A stretch of DNA of 64,000 nt from a bacterium (GTDB taxonomy: Bacteria; UBA8248), in contig CBDBZY010000003.1 of the NCBI GenBank assembly GCA_965213685.1, forward strand, positions 32,001-96,000, written 5' to 3'. The notes under the pieces are model-generated. The model saw only the letters and a list, made by a program, of their open reading frames with translations. It had not been told where the DNA came from and ran no database searches. Both the position numbers and the translations under genes were made by a program. Below are positions 19,693 to 49,260 of the stretch, piece after piece (positions within the stretch are counted from its first letter, which is position 1; each line of letters opens with the position of its first letter).

Positions 19693-20155
19693 CGCATCCG
19701 GGGTAGCGGATCGCCGCGCGCGCGATGCGGCGGCGAGAGAGAGGCGCGCGCTTTTGAGCAGCCGCATCCCCGTTCCGCCGAAATCCGGCAACCGCCGGAA
19801 AAAGAACTTCCCCTCCCTCCTCCCTCCGCCGGGGCCAGCCTCCCGGAAGCGTGCGCGTAATGGGGGCGCGATGCGTCTCCTCCTGGGAATGACGATACGC
19901 AGAGCGCGGCGATTCCACGGGGATCACGCGAATCGGGCGGCTGAGGATTTCAGGGGCGGCGGCGCGCGCAGCCTCGCCGTCGGGACGGCCGCCGAATCAT
20001 GCCTGCGGGGAGGATGGTCCTTCCAGGATGCGGAATCGGGCGTTCATCTTCGCCCTGGAATCGAGGGGAGGGGGAGGCGTGCGGGAATGGCCGGCGGGGC
20101 CGCGGCAGGACGTCCGACCGGGATGGTTCTCCTGCCTCCGACGCCTGGAGTCACC

Positions 20156-20189
20156 CATATGGCGAGCGGGTAGCCCCGCTCGCCATATG
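20156..20189 (-). terminator. perfect 15-bp hairpin downstream of the peptide precursor genes
   Basis: catatggcgagcggg-tagc-cccgctcgccatatg, 17 bp past the precursor stop; no strong U-tail. Confidence 0.65.
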
Positions 20190-20206
20190 TTCAGCAACCG
20201 CTATCA

Positions 20207-20557
20207 CTAGGCGTAGGGATCGTTCCACCTGTCGTTGGCGGTTGACGTCCCGGTGCCCCAGAAGCGCTCCCAGGAGACGCCTCCGGCGACGCTGTCCAGT
20301 TCCGCCTCGCTCAGTTCTCCATCTTTGGGGGCGTTCGCCGCCGCAGCGGGAATGACCACGTGTTTGACGTTCTCGCTGTCCAGCAGGATGGCGACCTTCG
20401 CGCCCGGCGGCACGTCCAGCCCGAGTTCGGCGGCCAGCTCCGGGGCGTCGCCCGCAGCCGCGCGCGCGCTCAGCGCCTCGTCTTCGGCGAGCCTTGTGCC
20501 GATGCTGCGAAGTTGCTCCCAGCGCTCGGTTTTGCTTGTCGGGGTTTTCCTGGTCAT
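20207..20557 (-). CDS. NHLP-leader peptide precursor; predicted core VSWERFWGTGTSTANDRWNDPYA
   Basis: NHLP-like leader (ELGLDVPPGAKVAILLDSENVKHVVIP) ending ELSEAELDSVAGG; SD AAGGAG; next to an NHLP exporter. Confidence 0.88.
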   Translation of the reverse strand: MTRKTPTSKTERWEQLRSIGTRLAEDEALSARAAAGDAPELAAELGLDVPPGAKVAILLDSENVKHVVIPAAAANAPKDGELSEAELDSVAGGVSWERFWGTGTSTANDRWNDPYA

Positions 20558-20681
20558 CTCGTCTCTCCTTGCAGGTCGAGGGGGGGATGGGAGTTGCCGG
20601 ATATTTTTTGACGTGGCTTTGGCCTCTAAGGATGAACGTGCGCGTCCGCCGGGCCTGTCCCTGCGCCGCGCGTTCCGTCCG

Positions 20682-20870
20682 TTATTCCCCGAATCCGCTG
20701 CCGCTTCCGTCCGGCAGGTTGTGCCAGCGGTCGAATGACCCGCTAGATGAACGGGGCCTCCGGGGCGCCGAGTGATGGCCGCCCGACACCTCTCCGAGCT
20801 CCTCGTCGCTGACGCTGCCTTCCTCCTCCCGGGTCTTTCCGCTTTCTGTTTCAGAATCGGGTTTCGTCAT
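20682..20870 (-). CDS. second double-glycine precursor with short acidic leader; predicted core HHSAPRRPRSSSGSFDRWHNLPDGSGSGFGE
   Basis: Leader ends VSDEELGEVSGG; strong SD AAAGGAGG; promoter upstream; tandem with the NHLP precursor. Confidence 0.75.
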   Translation of the reverse strand: MTKPDSETESGKTREEEGSVSDEELGEVSGGHHSAPRRPRSSSGSFDRWHNLPDGSGSGFGE

Positions 20871-21022
20871 GGTCGCTCCCTCCTTTTGGTTTCCGCGCGC
20901 CCTCTCGCGTTGCCGGGTGCGGGGTTGGAAACAGGAACAATCCGGGAGCCTCCCCTCCGGCGAGGCGCGCGATGCCCGGGTCGCCCCCAGTCGAACTGAA
21001 AAACTCCTCTGAACTCTCTTCT

Positions 21023-21051
21023 AACGTAGTGCTTTGCTCTGCGCGTGTCAA
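21023..21051 (-). promoter_or_regulatory. putative sigma70 promoter for the precursor genes
   Basis: Minus strand TTGACA-17 bp-TACGTT in an AT-rich patch. Confidence 0.6.
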
Positions 21052-21888
21052 TGAAAGAATGGACGAGAATCGTTGCGTCGCCGGGCGATTTTCCGCACCT
21101 GCGCAGTTTCGGGCTGACCGAGAAGCGAGAAGCCCGCGGCGGGCGGCTCCCCTCCCGCGAAAGCGAACTCCCCGCCCCGACAAAACCGCCGGGATGCGCG
21201 CGTCGGAGGCCGGGCGGGAAGGGTCCGCCGCGCGTGCTACGCGCCATTTTCGAGGCCACGCCCCCGGGGTTGGCTCCGCGCGCGGGTCGGTGCGCGCATA
21301 TGGACGCAGACCCGTTTCTCCTTGATCATCCGCTGGCGGGAGTGTAACCTTCTGCGCTGTTCCAGAATGCAGGAGTCGCGGCATGCCGCCCCGCGTGGCG
21401 CGCGCATATGCTGCCTGGGTGGCCGGGCGTTCCGTAAGGCGTCGCGCGGGCCGGGCGGGCCTTCGGCGGAATGGTTTTATGTGCCCCGGTGCGCGTGCGG
21501 TGCGCGTGCGGAGTGGATGGGATTTTTCGAGGAGGGGAATTTCACGCGCGGGGGAGATGGGAGTTTTCGTCTCGCGGCGAGTCGGGCGGCGCGCGCCGCT
21601 AACGCTAAGAGACGGCGTCTCCCCCTGGCTCCAGCCCGGACGCCGTTGCGGGGCCAGGAGCAGGAGGCCCGTCGTCCGGATGATGGGACACGGAATGACG
21701 ACCGCGATGGCACGGAGCGACTGGCGGCCCGTGCGCCGTCGTTCGGAATCCGCAAGAAATCCAGCCCCGATCATGTTTCCCGCCCCCTCGCCGGCTTCGC
21801 CTGGCGCAGCGCGCCGGCGCTTCCTGCGGAGTGTTGCGCGCGCAACCCCGCGCGCAACCCATGCTCTTGACGACGGAGAGACGCGAAG

Positions 21889-23166
21889 ATGGCGCGGAAG
21901 CAGATATTTCGGCAAGCCTCGCTGGATCGCCTCGCGACGCCGGAGCGGCTTGACCGCGCGCTTTTTACGACGACGCCCAAGGGATGGCTGGCGATTCTCG
22001 CCCTGCTGCTCATCGCGGCGGCGACGGTAGCCTGGTCGATCGGGGGCGAGGTTTCGACCTACGTGCAGGCCGAGGGCATTCTCCTGAACCGCGGCGGCAA
22101 GGTGGTCGACGCCGTATCCTCGGGCGTCGGGACGCTCACGCGCATCATCGCCGCCGTCGGACAGACGGTGGAGAAAGGCGACGTCGTGGCGGAGGTCGCC
22201 AACGCGGAGGCGCTGGAGCGCTATCGCAGCGCGCTCGCCCTCGTGGAGGAGCGCGCCGCGGAACTGGAGGATTTTCGGTCGGCGTCGGCGGAGGAAGACG
22301 CGATCATCGAACGCAACGTCGTCCGGCGGCGCGCGCATCTGGAGCGGCTGGAAGGCAGCGACCGCCAGGCGCTCGAGGTGGGCCGCAAGCGCCTCGAAAG
22401 CTATTTGCGGCTTTTCGAGAGGGGCGTCATCGACCAGGTGACCGTGGAGAATAGCCAGCAGGATTACGACGAGCTGCAGCGGGCGCTGTTCGCCACCTTG
22501 CGCGAACGCGACGACCTGGAGGCGAGCGAGGTGAAGCGCAAGAACGATCGCAAGACCCGGCTCAACGAGATGAAGGCCCGCCTCGAGGCGGCCCAGCGCG
22601 GGGCCAGGGAGCTCGAGGCTCTGCTGGGCACCCAGCGGATTCTGGCGCCGGTCTCCGGCCGCGTGACCGAGATCAAGGCGTCGATTGGCGGCTGGCTCGA
22701 GGAGGGGTTCTCCGTCCTCAGCATCAACACGGGCGCGAAACCTCCCGGCGGCGCGGGCGCGACCCCTCTCGAGGCGCTGGTCTACATACCCCCGGACGAC
22801 GGCAAGCAGGTCGAGCGGGGGATGGAGGCGCTGGTCTCCCCGTCCACGGTGCGGCGCGAGGAGTACGGCTCCATCAAGGGGCGGGTGGAGAGCGTCTCCA
22901 CGCTTCCGGTGAGCATGGGGGGCATGGTGGCCGTCCTGCAGAACCGGAGCCTCGCCGAGCGCCTCTCCAGGGGAGGGCCGCCCTATGCGGGCCGGATCGC
23001 GCTGCTGTCCGACCCGGAGACGGCGAGCGGCTTCGCCTGGACTTCGCCCAAGGCCTCGGATCAGTCCCTGTCCTCGGGCACGCTCGCCAGCGTCGAGATA
23101 AAGGTCGGCAGCCAGGCGCCGATCACCCTCGTCGTCCCCCTGCTCAAGGAACTGTTCGGACTGTGA
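21889..23166 (+). CDS. NHLP bacteriocin system secretion protein (HlyD-like membrane fusion protein)
   Basis: IFRQASLDRLATPERLD, one TM, coiled coil, VSPSTVRREEYGSIKGRV, SGFAWTS, APITLVVPLLK. Confidence 0.9.
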   Translation: MARKQIFRQASLDRLATPERLDRALFTTTPKGWLAILALLLIAAATVAWSIGGEVSTYVQAEGILLNRGGKVVDAVSSGVGTLTRIIAAVGQTVEKGDVVAEVANAEALERYRSALALVEERAAELEDFRSASAEEDAIIERNVVRRRAHLERLEGSDRQALEVGRKRLESYLRLFERGVIDQVTVENSQQDYDELQRALFATLRERDDLEASEVKRKNDRKTRLNEMKARLEAAQRGARELEALLGTQRILAPVSGRVTEIKASIGGWLEEGFSVLSINTGAKPPGGAGATPLEALVYIPPDDGKQVERGMEALVSPSTVRREEYGSIKGRVESVSTLPVSMGGMVAVLQNRSLAERLSRGGPPYAGRIALLSDPETASGFAWTSPKASDQSLSSGTLASVEIKVGSQAPITLVVPLLKELFGL

Positions 23167-25358
23167 GCGACGCATCCGACCTGAAGGGCAACCTCCACCG
23201 CCGCCGGGGCGGGCGGCGCGCGACGCCCGCCATCCTGCAGATGGAGGCGACGGAATGCGGCGCCGCCTGCCTCGCCATGATCCTCGCCCACTACGGGCGA
23301 TGGGTGCCGCTCGAGGAGTTGCGGGTGCGCTGCGGCGTGTCGCGCGACGGCAGCAAGGCGGTCAACATGCTGCGCGCGGCGCGCGAATACGACCTCACGG
23401 CGCGGGGCTTCCGACGCCAGGACGCGCGGAGCCTGCTCGACCTCCCCTTCCCGATGATCGTGTTCTGGAATTTCAACCACTTCATCGTGCTCGAGGGAAT
23501 CAAGGGAAACAAGGTCTACATCGTCGACCCGGCCTTTGGTCCGCAGAAGATCACCCTGGAGGAGTTCGACGAGGGGTTCACGGGCATCTGCCTCGGGTTC
23601 GCGCCCGGGCCGGAGTTTCGTCCCAGCGGCGCCCGGCCGAGCGTCTGGCGCGGCCTGTTCTCCCGCCTCGGCAATACGCGCTCCCCGCTGCTCTTCATGC
23701 TGTTGGCGACCCTGGCGCTCGTCGTGCCGGGCCTCGCCATCCCCACCATATCCAAGGTGTTCGTGGACGACGTGCTGATTCCGCGCAGCGAGAGCTTCGT
23801 CGCCCCGCTGCTGATCGGCTTGGGGGCGGCGGCCGTTCTGCAGGGCGCGCTCACCTGGCTGCAGCAGAACTGCCTCGCGCGCACGGAGGCCAAGCTCTCC
23901 CTGGTCAGCACGTCGAAGTTCTTCTGGCACGTGGTCACCCTGCCGATGACGTTCTTCGGCCAGCGCTTCGCCGGCGACCTCGCGAGCCGGGTCGCCTCCA
24001 ACGACAGGATGGCGCGGCTCATCTCGGGCGAGTTCGCCACCAACGCGATCAACATGCTCACGATGGCGATCTACGCCGCCGTGATGCTCTCCTACGACCT
24101 GACGCTCACCCTGGTCACGTTCGCCATGGTCGCCGTCAACCTCCTGGCGCTCCGGTGGGTCTCGCGCGCCCGCGAGCACGGGAACCGCCGCCTGCTCAAG
24201 GAGCAGGGCAAGGTGGCGGGCACCTCGGTGAACGGCCTTTACATGATCGAGACGATCAAGGCCAGCGGAACGGAGGGCGAGTTCTTCGCGCGCTGGGCCG
24301 GCATATACGCCAACGCCCTCTCGGCCCAGCAGGAGCTCGGCCTCTACACGAACCTTCTGAACGTCGTTCCGCCGCTGCTCGCCTCGCTGACCACGGTCGC
24401 CATTCTCGGCGTCGGCGGCCTGCGCATCGTCGATGGCGCGCTCACGATCGGCGGGCTGGTCGCCTACCAGTCCCTGGTGCAGAGCTTCTTCCTGCCGATC
24501 GACGGGCTGGTCCGGTTCGCGGCCAACATCCAGACCGTCAAGGGAGACATCGCCCGCCTCGACGACGTGCTGAACTACGCGCCGGACGAGCGCGTCGTCC
24601 AGAGGATGAGCGAGCGTCATGCGGAGGCGCCGCCGTCCGCGCGCGGCTTCCTCTCCATCGAGGACGTCACGTTCGGCTACAACGCCCAGGAGCCGCCGCT
24701 GATCGAGAACTTCAGCCTGTCGGTCAAACCCGGCCAGCGCGTGGCGCTCGTCGGCGGCTCCGGGAGCGGAAAGTCGACCGTCGGCAAGCTCATCTGCGGC
24801 CTGCTGAAGCCGTGGTCCGGCGTCGTGCGCGTCGACAAGCGCATCATCGACAACATTCCGCCCGGCCACCTGACCGAGGTGATCTCCTATGTGGACCAGG
24901 AGTGCGTGCTGCTCGAGGCCAGCGTGCGCGACAACGTCACCCTCTGGAACACGGCCATCGGCGAGCATCAGCTCACGCAGGCGCTTCGAGACGCCGTGAT
25001 CCATGACGAGATCATGTCCCGCCCCGGCAAATACGAGACGAAGGTCGAGGAGAACGGACGCAACTTCAGCGGCGGCCAGCGCCAGCGCCTGGAGATCGCC
25101 CGCGCGCTCGCCACCGACCCCACCATCCTGGTGCTGGACGAGGCCACCGCCGCCCTGGACCCGCTGACCGAGCTGGCGATCGACGACCGCCTGCGCCAGC
25201 GCGGCTGCACCTGCCTGATCGTGGCCCACCGGCTCAGCACAATCCGGGACGCCGACGAGATCGTGGTCATGGACCGCGGCACCGTCGTGCAGCGCGGGAC
25301 GCACGACGAGCTGATCGCCGAAGACGGCGTCTACCGCACCCTCATCATGTCCAACTGA
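23163..25358 (+). CDS. NHLP family peptidase-containing ABC exporter (C39 + TMD + NBD)
   Basis: QMEATECGAACL (catalytic Cys), CGVSRDGS, FNHFIVLEG (His), DPA; GGSGSGKST, FSGGQRQR, LDEAT. Confidence 0.93.
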   Translation: MSDASDLKGNLHRRRGGRRATPAILQMEATECGAACLAMILAHYGRWVPLEELRVRCGVSRDGSKAVNMLRAAREYDLTARGFRRQDARSLLDLPFPMIVFWNFNHFIVLEGIKGNKVYIVDPAFGPQKITLEEFDEGFTGICLGFAPGPEFRPSGARPSVWRGLFSRLGNTRSPLLFMLLATLALVVPGLAIPTISKVFVDDVLIPRSESFVAPLLIGLGAAAVLQGALTWLQQNCLARTEAKLSLVSTSKFFWHVVTLPMTFFGQRFAGDLASRVASNDRMARLISGEFATNAINMLTMAIYAAVMLSYDLTLTLVTFAMVAVNLLALRWVSRAREHGNRRLLKEQGKVAGTSVNGLYMIETIKASGTEGEFFARWAGIYANALSAQQELGLYTNLLNVVPPLLASLTTVAILGVGGLRIVDGALTIGGLVAYQSLVQSFFLPIDGLVRFAANIQTVKGDIARLDDVLNYAPDERVVQRMSERHAEAPPSARGFLSIEDVTFGYNAQEPPLIENFSLSVKPGQRVALVGGSGSGKSTVGKLICGLLKPWSGVVRVDKRIIDNIPPGHLTEVISYVDQECVLLEASVRDNVTLWNTAIGEHQLTQALRDAVIHDEIMSRPGKYETKVEENGRNFSGGQRQRLEIARALATDPTILVLDEATAALDPLTELAIDDRLRQRGCTCLIVAHRLSTIRDADEIVVMDRGTVVQRGTHDELIAEDGVYRTLIMSN

Positions 25359-25364
25359 GACGAT

Positions 25365-28306
25365 ATGGCCGCCGACGATATCATCCAGCGCATCCACGGC
25401 TCCCTGTTCTCGGCGGGGGCGCACCGCCCGTTCTTCCTGGACGATCCGGAGCGCGTCGTTTTTGTGCGGCAGGGCTACCTGGACATCTTCGTGGTCGAGG
25501 TGGCGGGCGGGGAGGTCGCCAGCCGCCAGCCGCACGTCACCCGCATCCCTGCGGGCGAGATGGCCTTCGGCGCGGAGAAGCTGGCGGGTGCCGCGTTCGT
25601 CAAGCCCAACGATCTCGCCTTTCTGGCCGTGCCCTCCCAGGACGCGGTTCTCATCGGGGGCAGGCGCGCCGGGCTCACCGGCAAGGAGAATTTCGACCTC
25701 GAAGCCCTGATATGGATCGACAACTGGCTCTTCCGCCTCTCGGAATTTCTGGTGCGCGGCGGCCAGCCGCTTCCGCGCGACGCGGTGCTGCTCGAGGCCG
25801 ACCCGGACGTTCCCTACCCGGCGGGCTCGGTCGTGAGCGCCCACCACTCGGACGTCATCTGGGTTTCGGCCAACCGGCCCATGCGCTTCGCCGGACGCGA
25901 CATGCTGCCCGTGGAGGCGGGCGACATCCAGCCGCTCTCCGAACGGACGTGGTTCGCTCTCGACGAGGACACCGAGGTCACCGCGATGCACACCCCGTCC
26001 GTCTTCGTCTCGGGGCGCCTGTGGGACGCTTTCGACCGCCACAGCCGGCTGGTGCTGGACTACGTGAACGTTTCGTGGACCGAGAAGACCGCCGCGGCAA
26101 AGGAGCGCTACCGGGTTTCCCTTTCCGGCCACGAGGCGGCCAGGAGCAGGATGTTTCAGCACCTAGGCGGCGTGCTGGGGGCGGCGGAGGACGACCGCGC
26201 CCCGGAGGCGGCCGCCCGTGCGTCGCTGCCGGCGGCGGTGAAGATCGTCGCCGAGTCCGTGGGCGCCTCCCTCCACCTCTCGGGCGCCGCGCCGGAGGGA
26301 AGCGATGCGGAGGAGACGATCATGCACCTGGCCGGCCCCTCCGGCATACGCGCGCGGCGGATATCCCTCGCCCCCGGCTGGTGGCGGCGGGACGGGCCGT
26401 CCTTCGTCGGGTTCGCGGCGGAGGGGGAGCGCCCATTCGCCCTGCTCGCGGACGGGCGCGGCCGCTACCGCTCTGTCGACCCGGAGACCGGCGCGTCGGC
26501 CGCCGTGAACCGCGAGGGCGCCGCCCGGCTCGCAAGCCACGGGGTGGTTCTCTATCCTCCGCTTCCGGACCGGATAGAAAGCGGCATGGCGGCGTTGCTC
26601 CACGTTCTGCGCCGGCACAAGCGGGACATCCGCACCGTGCTCTCCATGGCCGTTATGGGCGCCCTGTTCTCCCTGCTGATCCCGATCCTGACGGGTCAAC
26701 TTCTCGCCGAAATCATCCCGCGCGTCGACGTCCCGATGTGGGTCGCTAGCCTCGGCGCGCTTTTTCTCGGCACGATCGGCGCGACGATATTCCAGATCAT
26801 CCAGGCGCTGGCGCTTTTGCGCATCGAGGGCCGGGTGGGCGAAGACCTCCAGTCCGCCGTCTGGAGCCGGCTCCTCTCGCTGCCGGTGCCGTTTTTCCGA
26901 AACTTCGCCGCCGGCGAGCTGGCCGACCGCGCGAACGGCATCTTCGAGATACGCCAGTTGCTGACCAACGCCACCGTCGGCGCGGTGAGCAGCGGCATTT
27001 TCTCGATATCCAGCTACGCGCTCATGTTCTACTACAGCTGGCCGCTCGCGTTGTGCGTCCTCGCGCTGCTTTTCGCTTTTTTTTGGCATGAGCTGGATTT
27101 TCGCGCGCGGCCAGATGGAGCACTACCGCACCGCGTTCCGCACCCAGGGGGTCATCGACGGGCTCGTTTTCCAGATGATCACCGGAATTGCGAAGCTCCG
27201 CGTGGCGAACGCCGAAAACTACGCGCTCGCGCGCTGGGCGGAGCGGTTCGCCGAGCAGAAATACGCGACGCTGGCCGCGCGGCGCTGGGCCGCGGCGCAG
27301 TTTTCCTTCAACAGCATGTTCGTGCCGCTATCCTCGCTCGGCCTCGTCGCCTTCATCTGGTATGCGCTCATCGCCGGCGGCCAGCAGCCCGATTTCGACC
27401 TCGCCGCCTTCCTGTCCTTCAACGCCGCCTTCGGGCAGCTCGCCGCCGGGGTGACGGGGCTGACGGCCGCCTGGACGATAGCGGTGGTGACCGTCCCGCT
27501 TTTCGAGCGCGTCCAGCCCATCTTCGAGTCCCTGCCCGAGAGCGCCGACGGCGGCGAGATCGCCCCGAAAGACCTGACGGGAGACATCGAGTTCGTCAAC
27601 GTAACCTTCCGGTATCTGCCGGAGGGGGCCGAACGCGCTCGACGGGGTGTCCTTCCACATCCGCCCGGGCGATTATGTGGCCTTCGTCGGCGCGTCCGGT
27701 TCGGGCAAATCGACCATCTACCGCCTCATACTCGGCTTCGAGCGGCCCGCCTCGGGCACCGTGTTTCTCGACGGCTACGATCTGCTCAGCCTCGACCTGC
27801 CCAGGGTGCGCAGTCGCATGGGCGTGGTGCTGCAAAACGGCCAGCTCATTCCCGAGAGCATTTTCAAGAACATATCGAGTTCCGCCACGTTGACGGTGGA
27901 GGAGGCCTGGGCGGCCGCCCGGGCCGCCGGCATTGACGAGGACATCCGGGCCATGCCGATGGGCATGCACACCGTCCTTTCCGAGGGGGGCGGGCGGCGG
28001 CAGCCTGTCGGGCGGCCAGCGAAGCAGCGCCTGCTGATCGCCCGGGCGCTCGCCCGCAAGCCGCGCATCGTGCTGTTTGACGAGGCCACCAGCGCGCTGG
28101 ACAACCGCACCCAGGCGATCGTCCAGGCGTCGCTGAACAATCTCAGCATTACCCGCGTGGTGATCGCCCATCGTCTCACCACCGTCCAGGACGCCGACCG
28201 CATCTTCGTGCTGGAGGCGGGGCGGGTGGTCGAGAGCGGGCGATACCGCGAGCTCATGGAGCGCGACGGCGCCTTTGCGAGTCTGGCGAAACGCCAGATG
28301 AGCTAG
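25365..28306 (+). CDS. NHLP family second ABC transporter subunit (no peptidase), multiply frameshifted
   Basis: FLDDPERVVFVRQGYLDIF N-domain, WWRRDGP, TMD, GASGSGKST, DEATSALDN; frame breaks at T8 27077-27084, ~27625 and ~27985-28020 (LSGGQ appears off-frame), probably sequencing errors. Confidence 0.85.
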
Positions 28307-28367
28307 GGCGTTTCCGGGCGATTTCCGAGTCCCGTCCGCTTGCGCGGGGTTTCGCCGGAGAGGCGTC

Positions 28368-28396
28368 TTGCGCTTCGGTTCGTTTCTCCATAATAT
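28368..28396 (+). promoter_or_regulatory. putative sigma70 promoter of the DUF1302 operon
   Basis: TTGCGC-17 bp-TAATAT. Confidence 0.4.
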
Positions 28397-28459
28397 TTGA
28401 CTGCGCCATACCAACAGAACAAGAGAAAACGACCTTGCCAAAGAGGAGAGGCCAGGGAC

Positions 28460-38731: not shown

Positions 38732-40600
<1,869 letters not shown>

Positions 40601-40644
40601 TTATCAACGTGTCGGCGAAAGGGAAACCATCGGAGGTGAAAGAC

Positions 40645-40725
40645 CTGTCGCTTCCCTACGCCGGCGCTAACCGGTTCAGGTTCGAAGGGTTTGTTCTCAG
40701 CCTGCAAGGCACCCCCAGCGAACTT
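40645..40725 (-). ncRNA. TPP riboswitch
   Basis: Minus strand tcgctGGGGGTGC..GCTGAGA..ACCCTTCGAACCTGAACCGGTTAGCGCCGGCGTAGGGAAgcga upstream of thiC. Confidence 0.93.
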
Positions 40726-40886
40726 TCCATCTCCAAGAGTAGCAGGGGTTGGGCCGGGAGTCAAAAGGGAAATCGAGCGGGAGAGACGATTTGCCCGGCC
40801 TCCGTTTCGTAGTGGCGGGGGGCGCGTTCTGCTATCATGGGACGTTGCGGTTCGGGACGTCCCGGAGCCTGGACGGGGGAGGGCGA

Positions 40887-45140: not shown

Positions 45141-45671
45141 TTACGGCAGGAGTTTTATCAGGGCGACGATCGCTGCCACGATACCGCCGGACAAAACCAG
45201 CGCCCCCTGGTACATCTCCGTGCGCAATTTGGCGATTTCGCCTTTCATGTCGGCCCGCAGCGCAACCCCGGAATTGGCGATTTCGGTCTTTACTTCTGCG
45301 ATTTCGGCGCGCAGCGCGGTGCTGGCTTCTGCGATGTCGGCCTTGGTGGAGTTTCGGAGTTCCGCGATTTCGGTCTTTACTTCTGCAATTTCGGAGCGCA
45401 GTGTGGCGCTGGCTTCTGCGATGTCGGCGCGCAGCGCGGTGCTGGCTTCTGCGATGTCGGCCTTGGTGGAGTTTCGGAGTTCCGCGACTTCGGTCTTTAC
45501 TTCTGCAATTTCGGCGCGCAGTGCGGTGCTGGCTTCCGCGATATCGGCCTTGGTGGCCACGTTCTCCGCGATGGCGTCCCGCACCGTGATGACGACGGCT
45601 TCCGCCTGGGCTTCTTCGAACCCGGATTCTTTAAGCAGCTTCGTCGCCTGGAGCGTGTCGAATGCGGGCAT
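45141..45671 (-). CDS. DUF1640/CCDC90-like membrane-anchored coiled-coil protein (short stalk)
   Basis: FDTLQATKLLKESGFEEAQAEAVV head, VATKADI neck, repeated stalk, C-terminal TM ending IKLLP. Confidence 0.85.
   Translation of the reverse strand: MPAFDTLQATKLLKESGFEEAQAEAVVITVRDAIAENVATKADIAEASTALRAEIAEVKTEVAELRNSTKADIAEASTALRADIAEASATLRSEIAEVKTEIAELRNSTKADIAEASTALRAEIAEVKTEIANSGVALRADMKGEIAKLRTEMYQGALVLSGGIVAAIVALIKLLP
45270..45555 (-). repeat. near-exact tandem coding repeats (ADIAEASTALR / EIAEVKT / ELRNSTK units)
   Basis: Blocks such as gcgatgtcggccttggtggagtttcggagttccgcga occur twice and tcggtctttacttctgc three times. Confidence 0.85.
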
Positions 45672-45975
45672 GGCGTCCTCTCCCGATAGGCGTCGTCCAC
45701 GAGTATAGCCCAAGGGCGCTCGCGGGCGCAAGTTCTCGCTTTCAGGGTAGGTAGGGGTGGGGTGGTTTCGCGTCATTCGGCAAGAGTCATCCCGACCGGC
45801 CGGGCGCACCGCTCCTGTCCGTACCCTGCGAGGAGCCGCCGGCGGCGAAAATTTGCCGTCTCCCGTCCCGCCCAAGCCTCATGCGGGCGGCGAAACGCCA
45901 GCCAGCTCCAACCCCCGCATTTCCTCCTCCGATCCGTTTTCAGGGCGATTCGCGCGGGGGACGATAATTTTTCCG

Positions 45976-47989: not shown

Positions 47990-48886
47990 CTAGGGCAGCA
48001 GTTTTATCAGGGTGACGGTCAAACTCACGACCAGACTCACGATGCCGGCGGACAGATATAGTGCCCCCCGGTACATGTCCGTGCGCAACCCGGCGATATC
48101 GGTCTTGATCTCTGTGCGCAACTCGGCGATATCGGTCTTGAATTCCGCGCGCAGTTCAGCGATATCGGCTTTGGTTTCACTGCGCAGTTCGGCGAAATCA
48201 TTGCGCAGCCCGGAGAATTCGACCTGGAGTTGGGCGAACTCGCCGCGCAGTTCAGCGATATCGGCCTTGATTTCGTTGCGCAGTTCGGCGAAATCATTGC
48301 GCATCCCGGAGAAGTCGGCCTGGAGTTGGGCGAATTCGCCGCGCAGTTCAGCGATATCGGCCTTGGTTTCATTGCGCAGCTGCGAGAAGTCGGCCTGGAG
48401 TCGGGAGAACTCGCTGCGCAGCTCCGAGAACTCGGCCTGGAGTTGGGCGAACTCGCCGCGCAGCTGCGAGAACTCGGACTGGATTTGGGCGAACTCGCCG
48501 CGCAGCTCCGAGAACTCGGCCTGGAGTTGGGCGAATTCGCCGCGCAGTTCAGCGATATCGGCCTTGGTTTCATTGCGCAGTTCGGCGAAATCATTGCGCA
48601 TCCCGGAGAAGTCGGACTGGAGTCGGGAGAATTCGCCACGCAGCTGCGAGAAGTCGGTCTGGAGTTGGGAGAACTCGCCACGCAGCTCCGAGAAGTCTGT
48701 CTGGATTTGGGCGAATTCGCCGCGCAGCCCGGAGAACTCGCCGCTGAGTTCGGCGAATTCGGTCTTCGTGGCGAGATTCTCGCCGACCGCATCCCGCACC
48801 GTGCTGACGACGGCTTCCGCCTGGGTCTCCTCGAACCCGGATTCCTTGAGCAGCTTCGTCGCCTTGAGGGTATCGAATGCGAACAT
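47990..48886 (-). CDS. DUF1640/CCDC90-like membrane-anchored coiled-coil protein (long Phe/Leu heptad stalk)
   Basis: MFAFDTLKATKLLKESGFEETQAEAVV head, LATK neck, about 220 aa of FxxLxxE heptads with interspersed 11-mers, C-terminal TM ending IKLLP; SD GGAGG. Confidence 0.88.
   Translation of the reverse strand: MFAFDTLKATKLLKESGFEETQAEAVVSTVRDAVGENLATKTEFAELSGEFSGLRGEFAQIQTDFSELRGEFSQLQTDFSQLRGEFSRLQSDFSGMRNDFAELRNETKADIAELRGEFAQLQAEFSELRGEFAQIQSEFSQLRGEFAQLQAEFSELRSEFSRLQADFSQLRNETKADIAELRGEFAQLQADFSGMRNDFAELRNEIKADIAELRGEFAQLQVEFSGLRNDFAELRSETKADIAELRAEFKTDIAELRTEIKTDIAGLRTDMYRGALYLSAGIVSLVVSLTVTLIKLLP
48090..48760 (-). repeat. 21-bp/33-bp coding tandem repeat array
   Basis: Recurrent gcgcagttcagcgatatcggc, ctggagttgggcgaa and cgagaactcg units. 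Confidence 0.9.
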
Positions 48887-49022
48887 CGGGTTTCCTCCTC
48901 CCGTTGGCGTTGCCCAGTATAGCCCCAAAGTTCTCGCCCGCGCAAATCGCCGTTTCGGGAGGGGTTGGCCGGGTCGGCGAGACATTCTTTCTGTGGAGGC
49001 GGCGCGCTCCCCCGCGCGGGCT

Positions 49023-49058
49023 GGTTCCGGCTCACATGGTTTCGTTTCGCACGGATTT
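49023..49058 (+). repeat. right copy of imperfect direct repeat flanking DUF1640 gene 2
   Basis: ggttccggctcacatggtttcgtttcgcacggattt. Confidence 0.8.
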
Positions 49059-49260
49059 GGCAGGCGCGCGACGGGCCTGGGAGTATGGTTGCCGGACCGC
49101 TTTCCGGGTTCCGCTTTTCGGACGAGGTCTGTTGACAGGTTTCCCGGGGAATGGGATATACCATCCGGCGGCTGGCGGATGCGCAGGTTCGCCCCTACGG
49201 GAGGTTGTTCCCCTGCCACTGACTGTGTGAGGGCGAGAGAGGCTGAGGAGAGAACGAACG

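What the first reader, a model, noticed from the sequence alone, without database searches (positions are those of the whole stretch)
20156..28306. NHLP peptide locus with two Cys-free precursors, an intact C39 exporter and no maturation enzyme
Seen: two tandem minus-strand precursors with their own promoter, SD sequences and downstream hairpin, divergent from a HlyD + C39-ABC + ABC trio. The C39 Cys, His and Asp are present. No YcaO, LanM, radical SAM, P450 or methyltransferase is recognisable in the 64 kb. Known: NHLP/proteusin loci usually carry such enzymes, often with Cys/Ser/Thr-rich or hydrophobic cores. Inference: these polar, Trp/Arg/Asp-containing cores are either exported unmodified (signal or bacteriocin-like) or modified by enzymes encoded elsewhere. 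This may be an undescribed peptide class.
Basis: partly seen in the sequence, partly recalled or inferred. Interest (0 to 1): 0.8.

Follow-up and report, generated by a model that had tools for sequence, protein, structure and literature searches.

The report
Enzyme-free peptide export cassette, sponge symbiont
A sponge-dwelling bacterium carries an inserted gene block with two small peptide genes and an intact cut-and-export pump, but no recognisable peptide-modifying enzyme anywhere in its assembled genome, so it likely secretes plain, tryptophan-anchored peptides from a system that normally makes chemically decorated ones.

Summary
The locus is real: one divergent NHLP precursor (precA), one short double-glycine-leader peptide (precB, not an NHLP), and the NHLM exporter trio. 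The second ABC gene is frameshifted in the window but reads whole (978 aa) in short-read contigs of 3 of 4 runs. The 8.7-kb block is a lineage-specific insertion; its flanks are adjacent in 18 of 22 congeners. No YcaO, LanM-type, halogenase, PqqD/RRE, prenyltransferase or cyclase was found in the 94%-complete genome. The only P450 and SPASM radical SAM lie far away on a probably foreign segment. The exporter holds the genome's only C39 domain. Three more short GG-leader peptides lie on another contig (noted earlier by this scan, e1-6728469). PrecA's core belongs to a small unnamed family, W-x3-W-G...W, conserved at about 40% leader identity (5 of the 5 nearest leaders, 0 of 142 distant ones). 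Most likely (0.55) it exports unmodified peptides, probably signals. The main rival (0.25) is a cassette that left its Trp-modifying enzyme behind: related exporters nearly always come with enzymes. Haft 2010 already noted enzyme-less NHLP hosts, so this is a new variant of a known system. Expression and products are untested.

The parts
19696..28425 (.). Approximate extent of the lineage-specific insertion between a sugar-type ABC ATPase gene and the DUF1302 gene
   Evidence: Flanks lie 0.1-1 kb apart in 18 of 22 congeners, 111 nt in G001
20156..20189 (-). Perfect 15-bp hairpin downstream of precA, no U-tract; likely terminator or 3' stabiliser
   Evidence: (z -4.36)
20207..20557 (-). precA: 93-aa divergent NHLP leader plus 23-aa core VSWERFWGTGTSTANDRWNDPYA (core at 20210-20278; 2715.21 Da monoisotopic)
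   Evidence: (best PDB hit is the NHLP 8tb1, E 4.7e-7)
20565..20570 (-). SD-like AAGGAG for precA
   Evidence: sequence
20682..20870 (-). precB: 31-aa acidic GG leader plus 31-aa polar core containing DRWHN (core at 20685-20777; 3376.56 Da monoisotopic); no homolog found in the protein collection
   Evidence: stop kept as TAA>TAG in strain X4
20879..20885 (-). SD-like AAGGAGG for precB
   Evidence: sequence
21023..21051 (-). Possible sigma-70-type promoter (perfect -35, 17-nt spacer, 3/6 -10); unproven
   Evidence: not reported by the scanner
21889..23166 (+). HlyD-like membrane fusion protein, TIGR03794
   Evidence: 244 bits vs cut-off 156
23163..25358 (+). Peptidase-containing ABC transporter, TIGR03796, with C39 Cys32/His106/Asp122; the only C39 domain in the genome
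25365..28306 (+). Peptidase-less ABC partner, TIGR03797; frameshifted in this assembly, whole (978 aa) in short-read contigs

Best explanation
The block is an acquired export-only cassette: it encodes two double-glycine precursors and an intact cleaving exporter, and it likely releases the 23- and 31-residue cores as linear, unmodified peptides that probably act as cell-to-cell signals in the sponge. Shown: the genes, leader recognition positions, catalytic residues, insertion at an otherwise empty site, and no recognised maturase in the assembly. Inferred from PCAT biochemistry: the C39 domain reads the -12/-7/-4 leader helix and cuts after Gly-Gly, and the ABC1/ABC2 pair with HlyD and the genome's TolC-like protein (C3:325592) moves the core out. 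Inferred more weakly: the same pump serves three further short-leader peptides on contig C45, and the fixed Trp anchors with a variable polar spacer are read by a receptor. Signalling rather than killing is the least supported step (about 0.5 within this explanation).
For: Absence of enzymes in G000: YcaO 0, Trp halogenase 0, PqqD/RRE 0, LanC 0 and DUF4135 0 (both controls silent, but LanM, DUF4135, PoyD-type, ATP-grasp and Asp/Asn-hydroxylase proteins from neighbouring loci also gave no BLAST hit, with names from 93, 115), ABBA prenyltransferase-like and cyclase-like profiles 0. The 22 radical SAM hits read as housekeeping by my inspection; the single SPASM protein and single P450 lie on C31 past 350 kb where GC drops to 0.57-0.60. 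The high-GC part is 3.07 Mb, the size of its nearest relatives by flank identity (G001, G007: about 3.0-3.1 Mb), which have no NHLP precursor, exporter, YcaO or prenyltransferase. Upkeep: exporter whole in three runs; strain X4 has 3 silent and 1 leader change in precA and a conserved stop in precB, with listed indels only between genes. Against P0002 the core differs at 6 of 23 and the leader at 6 of 88 positions (p = 0.017). One C39 pump, five Cys-free GG peptides. Parallel case: single-chromosome G054 keeps an exporter and an orphan aromatic core but lacks YcaO, prenyltransferase, halogenase and DUF4135. No immunity-like ORF in the two large intergenic gaps.
Against: No RNA or peptide data (no RNA run listed). 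17 of 18 other-lineage genomes with this exporter clade have YcaO, and Cys-free Trp cores in congeners and other symbionts often sit beside an ABBA-fold prenyltransferase-like gene. Conserved W-x3-W and distal W positions fit enzyme recognition as well as receptor recognition. The gene neighbourhoods of the other family members could not be seen. The coding-versus-intergenic deficit of X4 substitutions is not significant (5 of 540 vs 23 of 1012, p = 0.07; 50 rows were not shown). PrecB has a neutral coding score (-1.7) and no homolog. The C45 peptides have Glu at -7 (two-residue shift) and may not be cut. No cognate sensor kinase lies at the locus. The assembly is 94% complete and chimeric.
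Confidence: 0.55

Rival explanations
1. Orphaned cassette. The W-x3-W-G...W cores evolved as substrates of a Trp-modifying enzyme (an ABBA prenyltransferase is the best candidate, then a flavin halogenase or a cross-linking enzyme) in a donor symbiont. The enzyme did not come with the transfer or was lost, so what is exported here is an unfinished product.
For: The block is an insertion whose exporter belongs to a 61-76% identity clade spread over Pseudomonadota, Acidobacteriota, Binatota and this genus. In 11 congeners a Trp-containing NHLP sits beside a gene whose predicted fold matches indole/aromatic prenyltransferases; G022 and G008 have that pair plus the most similar in-genus exporter. 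G054 versus G043 shows YcaO plus oxidase missing beside a transposase-like gene with the exporter kept. Leader-dependent Trp geranylation by such enzymes is published (PMC12715784).
Against: No enzyme remnant in the intergenic DNA. Genes are intact in several samples, and a 90%-identical precA with fixed Trp anchors exists elsewhere. Further short-leader peptides were added or kept in the same genome.
Confidence: 0.25
2. The cores are modified in this organism by an enzyme that is unrecognised or missing from the assembly.
For: Completeness 94%, 49 high-GC contigs. NHLP precursors are often far from their enzymes (Haft 2010). The proteome of about 2,900 predicted proteins was probed by family, not annotated in full; methyltransferases are present.
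Against: All NHLP-linked enzyme families seen in about 170 fetched loci are absent.
Confidence: 0.13
3. The cores are unmodified narrow-spectrum antibacterials (class II microcin or bacteriocin-like) rather than signals, or the block is silent cargo.
For: Same export logic as class II microcins (established knowledge); dense competitive habitat; no expression data.
Against: Cores are short, polar and nearly neutral (hydrophobic fraction 0.16-0.30, net charge -1 and +1); no immunity-like ORF. Intact genes argue against decay.
Confidence: 0.07

Closest known systems
NHLP/NHLM export system (TIGR03793 precursor; TIGR03794/03796/03797 trio; Haft, Basu and Mitchell 2010, PMC2887384)
   Same: Same exporter trio, GG cleavage site and NHase-like leader in precA. 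The paper says the leader tracks the transporter better than any enzyme and that some members occur in species without TOMM or lanthionine enzymes.
   Different: Cores are Cys-free, polar and Trp-anchored rather than rich in heterocyclisable residues; precA scores below the family cut-off; four of the five candidate substrates have short leaders; no enzyme in the genome.
srp sponge proteusin clusters (LCCCW core, YcaO, brominase; Nguyen 2021 as described in bioRxiv 2023.06.09.544420 and PMC9426513)
   Same: Same habitat and genus: 9 congeners among the loci fetched carry LCCCW precursors; NHLP plus NHLM exporter; Trp in the core.
   Different: The srp-type exporter is only about 44% identical. 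G000 has no LCCCW precursor, YcaO or halogenase.
Long-leader RiPPs Trp-prenylated by ABBA prenyltransferases (MppC/MppE, PMC12715784)
   Same: Long structured leader and Trp-containing core; related-fold enzymes sit beside Trp-core NHLPs in congeners.
   Different: No such enzyme in G000; no lanthionine ring possible.
Unmodified double-glycine peptides exported by PCATs: streptococcal ComC/CSP via ComAB, class II microcins
   Same: GG leader read at -4/-7/-12, cleavage on export (PMC10885120); short unmodified product with strain-variable sequence (PMC3055912, abstract start only).
   Different: Gram-negative-type three-gene exporter, NHLP leader on one substrate, and no linked sensor kinase or immunity gene.

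Membership tests
NHLM export system | HlyD-like TIGR03794 over cut-off | tested here: met
   244.1 vs 156.2 bits
NHLM export system | C39-ABC TIGR03796 over cut-off with catalytic Cys/His/Asp | tested here: met
   1021 vs 853 bits; C32, H106, D122
NHLM export system | Peptidase-less ABC TIGR03797, intact | tested here: met
   Three consecutive pieces match model positions 4-286, 299-466, 472-686; open 978-aa frame once the bases absent from three runs are left out. The whole protein was not rescored.
NHLP precursor (precA) | TIGR03793 over curated cut-off | tested here: not met
   30.1 vs 50.9 bits, E 3e-7; relatives P0007, P0152, P0006 also below
NHLP precursor (precA) | NHase-alpha homology without the CxxCSC metal site, about 80-90 aa leader ending in GG | tested here: met
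   Profile hits 8tb1, 9cjx and nitrile hydratase alpha chains; no Cys in the protein; GG at 92-93; Atlas nearest clusters are NHLP, score 0.87, a lead only
NHLP precursor (precA) | Folded NHLP nucleus | tested here: inconclusive
   AlphaFold mean pLDDT 45.7; three helices, two strands and a final helix, but too poor to search
NHLP precursor (precB) | NHase-like long leader | tested here: not met
   31-aa leader, no TIGR03793 hit; resembles short acidic GG leaders beside other NHLM exporters
Proteusin / TOMM / srp RiPP | Class-defining maturase (YcaO, radical SAM epimerase, LanM, halogenase) in cluster or genome | tested here: not met
Prenylated long-leader RiPP | ABBA prenyltransferase in cluster or genome | tested here: not met
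   0 hits in G000; 11 of 29 genomes searched have it
Unmodified PCAT-exported pheromone or class II microcin | Hydrophobic residues at leader -4, -7, -12 and GG | tested here: met
   for precA and precB; not met for the three C45 peptides
Unmodified PCAT-exported pheromone or class II microcin | Linked receptor kinase or immunity gene | tested here: not met
   None in the insertion or among Pfam-assigned window genes
Unmodified PCAT-exported pheromone or class II microcin | Mature product unmodified and active | not testable with these tools
   needs LC-MS/MS and bioassay

The most novel reading that the evidence does not exclude
Sponge symbionts have repurposed the NHLP/NHLM machinery as a general secretion route for unmodified, Trp-anchored polar peptides. 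The W-x3-W-G-(polar spacer)-W family and the orphan aromatic cores in G043/G054 would be a new class of enzyme-free signals between symbionts or to the host, with fixed tryptophans as binding anchors and the spacer as a strain-specific address.
Probability: 0.25. Interest if true: 0.72.

Novelty: new variant of a known kind. Interest (0 to 1): 0.42.

Why it matters
Enzyme-centred genome mining discards loci like this. If the unmodified cores are the real products, part of the very large NHLP repertoire of sponge symbionts (39 to 51 hits in single genomes) is a peptide signalling vocabulary rather than cryptic natural products, and it is cheap to test because the cores can be synthesised directly. 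If instead they are orphans, the conserved W-x3-W-G...W motif is bait for finding an unknown Trp-modifying enzyme in the donor lineage.

Tried and rejected
Second NHLP locus on C44: it is the true nitrile hydratase alpha subunit. ABC2 pseudogene: rejected. P450 and SPASM radical SAM on C31 as trans maturases: set aside; no RRE, no precursor nearby, no over-cut-off RiPP family, on a lower-GC segment that looks foreign (the alphaproteobacterial look of its ClpX is my recall). DUF1302/DUF1329/YCF48/MMPL genes as part of the system: rejected, they are the conserved flank in congeners without the cassette. A genome holding a close precA relative: none in 20 exporter-clade genomes (best 64 bits), 20, 23 and 78 genomes of related alphaproteobacterial groups (overlapping; no positive control inside those three), 50 other genomes of the phylum or viral contigs. 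The metagenome scan with HlyD gave 4 distant loci. Origin of the exporter: a 36-row quick tree grouped it with alpha/acidobacterial copies, a 14-row tree with G022/G008 (support 84), so one versus two acquisitions is unresolved. AlphaFold of precA was too poor to use. No RNA holder listed: no evidence either way. Literature: 0 papers with RiPP + tryptophan + cross-link + WxxxW; searches listed no paper on enzyme-free NHLP products; most subscription journals are not covered. No complex prediction was run.

Full report
SOURCE. The window is G000:C3:32001-96000. The assembly is chimeric: 49 contigs at high GC total 3.07 Mb, the other 22 total about 4.9 Mb at GC 0.33-0.54. Completeness is listed as 94.19%. 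I therefore read the organism as a sponge symbiont; the GTDB name UBA8248 is my recall, not a result.

OBSERVATION. The two small ORFs, SD-like sites, hairpin and exporter trio are present. PrecA has a 93-aa NHase-like leader below the TIGR03793 cut-off whose profile finds the solved NHLP 8tb1 first. PrecB has a 31-aa acidic leader and is not an NHLP; such short leaders are common beside NHLM exporters of other bacteria. Both have the hydrophobic -4/-7/-12 residues that C39 domains read (PMC10885120 passages; PMC12537861 passages). ABC2 is broken in the window but whole in contigs of X1, X2 and X4, all from one study that may include the source sample. The promoter is plausible only.

ENZYMES. 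None in the window. In the genome: no YcaO, Trp halogenase, PqqD, LanC or DUF4135 (the LanC and DUF4135 controls were silent). Profiles built from 26 prenyltransferase-like, 8 cyclase-like and 15 halogenase sequences of related loci found nothing. Of 23 and 20 recurring neighbour families from other NHLP loci, the ones with G000 homologs were exporter parts, TolC, signalling or housekeeping genes and one desaturase-like protein at 24% identity. The 22 radical SAM hits look like housekeeping enzymes on inspection. One SPASM protein and one P450 sit 4 kb apart on a lower-GC tail of C31. This is a family-by-family search, not a full annotation.

OTHER SUBSTRATES. The exporter holds the only C39 domain; a TolC-like gene is on the same contig. 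I found them at C45:53651-54587, amid metabolic genes with no enzyme. Their leaders are 72% similar in DNA to precB's, with two extra residues before the GG.

HISTORY. In 18 of 22 congeners the two flanks are 0.1-1 kb apart; three of the others are fragmented and one showed only the left flank among listed rows. The closest relatives by flank identity (G001, G007) have no NHLP precursor, exporter, YcaO or prenyltransferase. The exporter belongs to a clade of MAG copies at 61-76% identity from several phyla. Most sit in or near YcaO/oxidase/DUF4135 clusters with Ser/Thr/Ala/Gly-rich cores, and 17 of 18 non-genus genomes have YcaO. G022 and G008 carry a similar trio (66%) with no precursor beside it and a Trp-core NHLP plus prenyltransferase-like gene elsewhere. 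Whether their exporter and this one share one acquisition is unresolved.

CORE FAMILY. A search of 1.84 billion representatives and a profile search gave P0002, P0006, P0007, P0151, P0152 and P0015/P0150. Ranked by leader alone, the 5 nearest all have W-x3-W-G at the core start and a later D/G-(R/W/D)-W; the sixth (P0150) has Arg at both first anchors; 0 of 142 lower-ranked cores have the motif. All were first found with full-length queries, so some bias toward shared cores remains. Leader identity to precA is 38-46% for all but P0002. PrecB's core shares DRW(H)N. Against P0002 the core changes faster than the leader (6/23 vs 6/88, p = 0.017), all six changes in its first 12 residues with the Trp residues fixed. 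No genome context was obtainable for these relatives, which is the main gap.

MECHANISM. Cleavage and export follow from PCAT biochemistry and are well supported. With no enzyme in the cell the product would be linear and unmodified whichever history is true; the open point is whether that form is the selected one. Intact genes, silent changes in strain X4, a 90% homolog, extra short-leader peptides and the parallel in G054 (exporter plus orphan aromatic core, YcaO and oxidase missing relative to G043) favour yes, 0.55. The usual company of this exporter clade and of Trp cores (ABBA-fold model, pLDDT 85.9, best Foldseek hits indole prenyltransferases at E about 1e-6, TM about 0.5) supports the orphan reading, 0.25. 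Signal rather than antibiotic rests only on short, polar, near-neutral cores, spacer variation and no immunity-like ORF.

LITERATURE SEEN. PMC2887384: passages and section 6. PMC12715784: first third of the text. PMC12426817, PMC9426513, PMC12537861, PMC10885120 and bioRxiv 2023.06.09.544420: passages; supplements not read. PMC3055912: start of abstract. Nguyen 2021: not read, known through citing passages. Haft 2010 already reports NHLP members in species without known enzymes. No paper on this core motif or on enzyme-free NHLP products was listed.

VERDICT. Real, carefully bounded and maintained, but a variant of a system known since 2010. The new elements are a genome-wide enzyme-free case and an unnamed Trp-anchored core family. 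Interest 0.42.

Noticed in passing
G000:C45:53651-54587 (L208): Three tandem short GG-leader peptide genes related to precB's leader, with a two-residue shift; two of them are singletons in the protein collection.
   Followed up: partly
L033:3720-15421 (G002): NHLP precursor whose core is only IYY, beside a P450, a methyltransferase, two prenyltransferase-like genes and an NHLM exporter. It recalls cittilin (YIYY core, P450, methyltransferase; from memory) on an NHLP leader.
   Followed up: no
L024:1411-3054 and equivalents in 11 congeners: Conserved two-gene unit: NHLP with a Trp/Asn/Gln-rich core plus a protein with no Pfam hit whose model matches ABBA indole prenyltransferases. The same family lies in the srp clusters.
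   Followed up: partly
L035:1360-5139: In srp-type clusters of this genus an NHLP leader is fused to a squalene-hopene-cyclase-like domain, next to a desaturase/AlkB-like fusion protein.
   Followed up: no
G052, G050, G010: Very large dispersed NHLP repertoires: 51, 46 and 39 hits.
   Followed up: no
L078:1878-2144, L081:16231-16491 and others: Leader-only NHLP genes (86-92 aa, no GG, no core) recur in YcaO clusters of this exporter clade; possibly trans-acting leaders.
   Followed up: no
P0006, P0151: Members of the precA family with a tandemly doubled NHLP leader.
   Followed up: no
L192, L193, L194 (G043, G054): Orphan NHLPs with Trp/Tyr/Asp/Arg/Gly-rich Cys-free cores inserted among housekeeping genes; one is syntenic in both genomes.
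   Followed up: partly
L073:2101-8819: Same layout in a metagenome contig: one GG precursor divergent from the trio, no enzyme on the 9.3-kb contig.
   Followed up: no
L088, L109; G000:C44:194189-199620: SpoIIE-type phosphatase, anti-sigma and STAS genes recur beside NHLM exporters; G000 has a homologous unlinked cluster. Possible lead for a response pathway.
   Followed up: no
G000:C31 beyond about 348 kb; 22 low-GC contigs: The assembly is chimeric; the C31 tail changes composition within a contig.
   Followed up: partly
window 38732-40726: thiC under a TPP riboswitch.
   Followed up: no
window 45141-45875 and 47990-49219: Two CCDC90-like coiled-coil genes.
   Followed up: no
G000:C5:48000-50350 and C48:16400-28400: Regular repeat arrays that look like CRISPR arrays, seen as repetitive pseudo-ORFs.
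   Followed up: no
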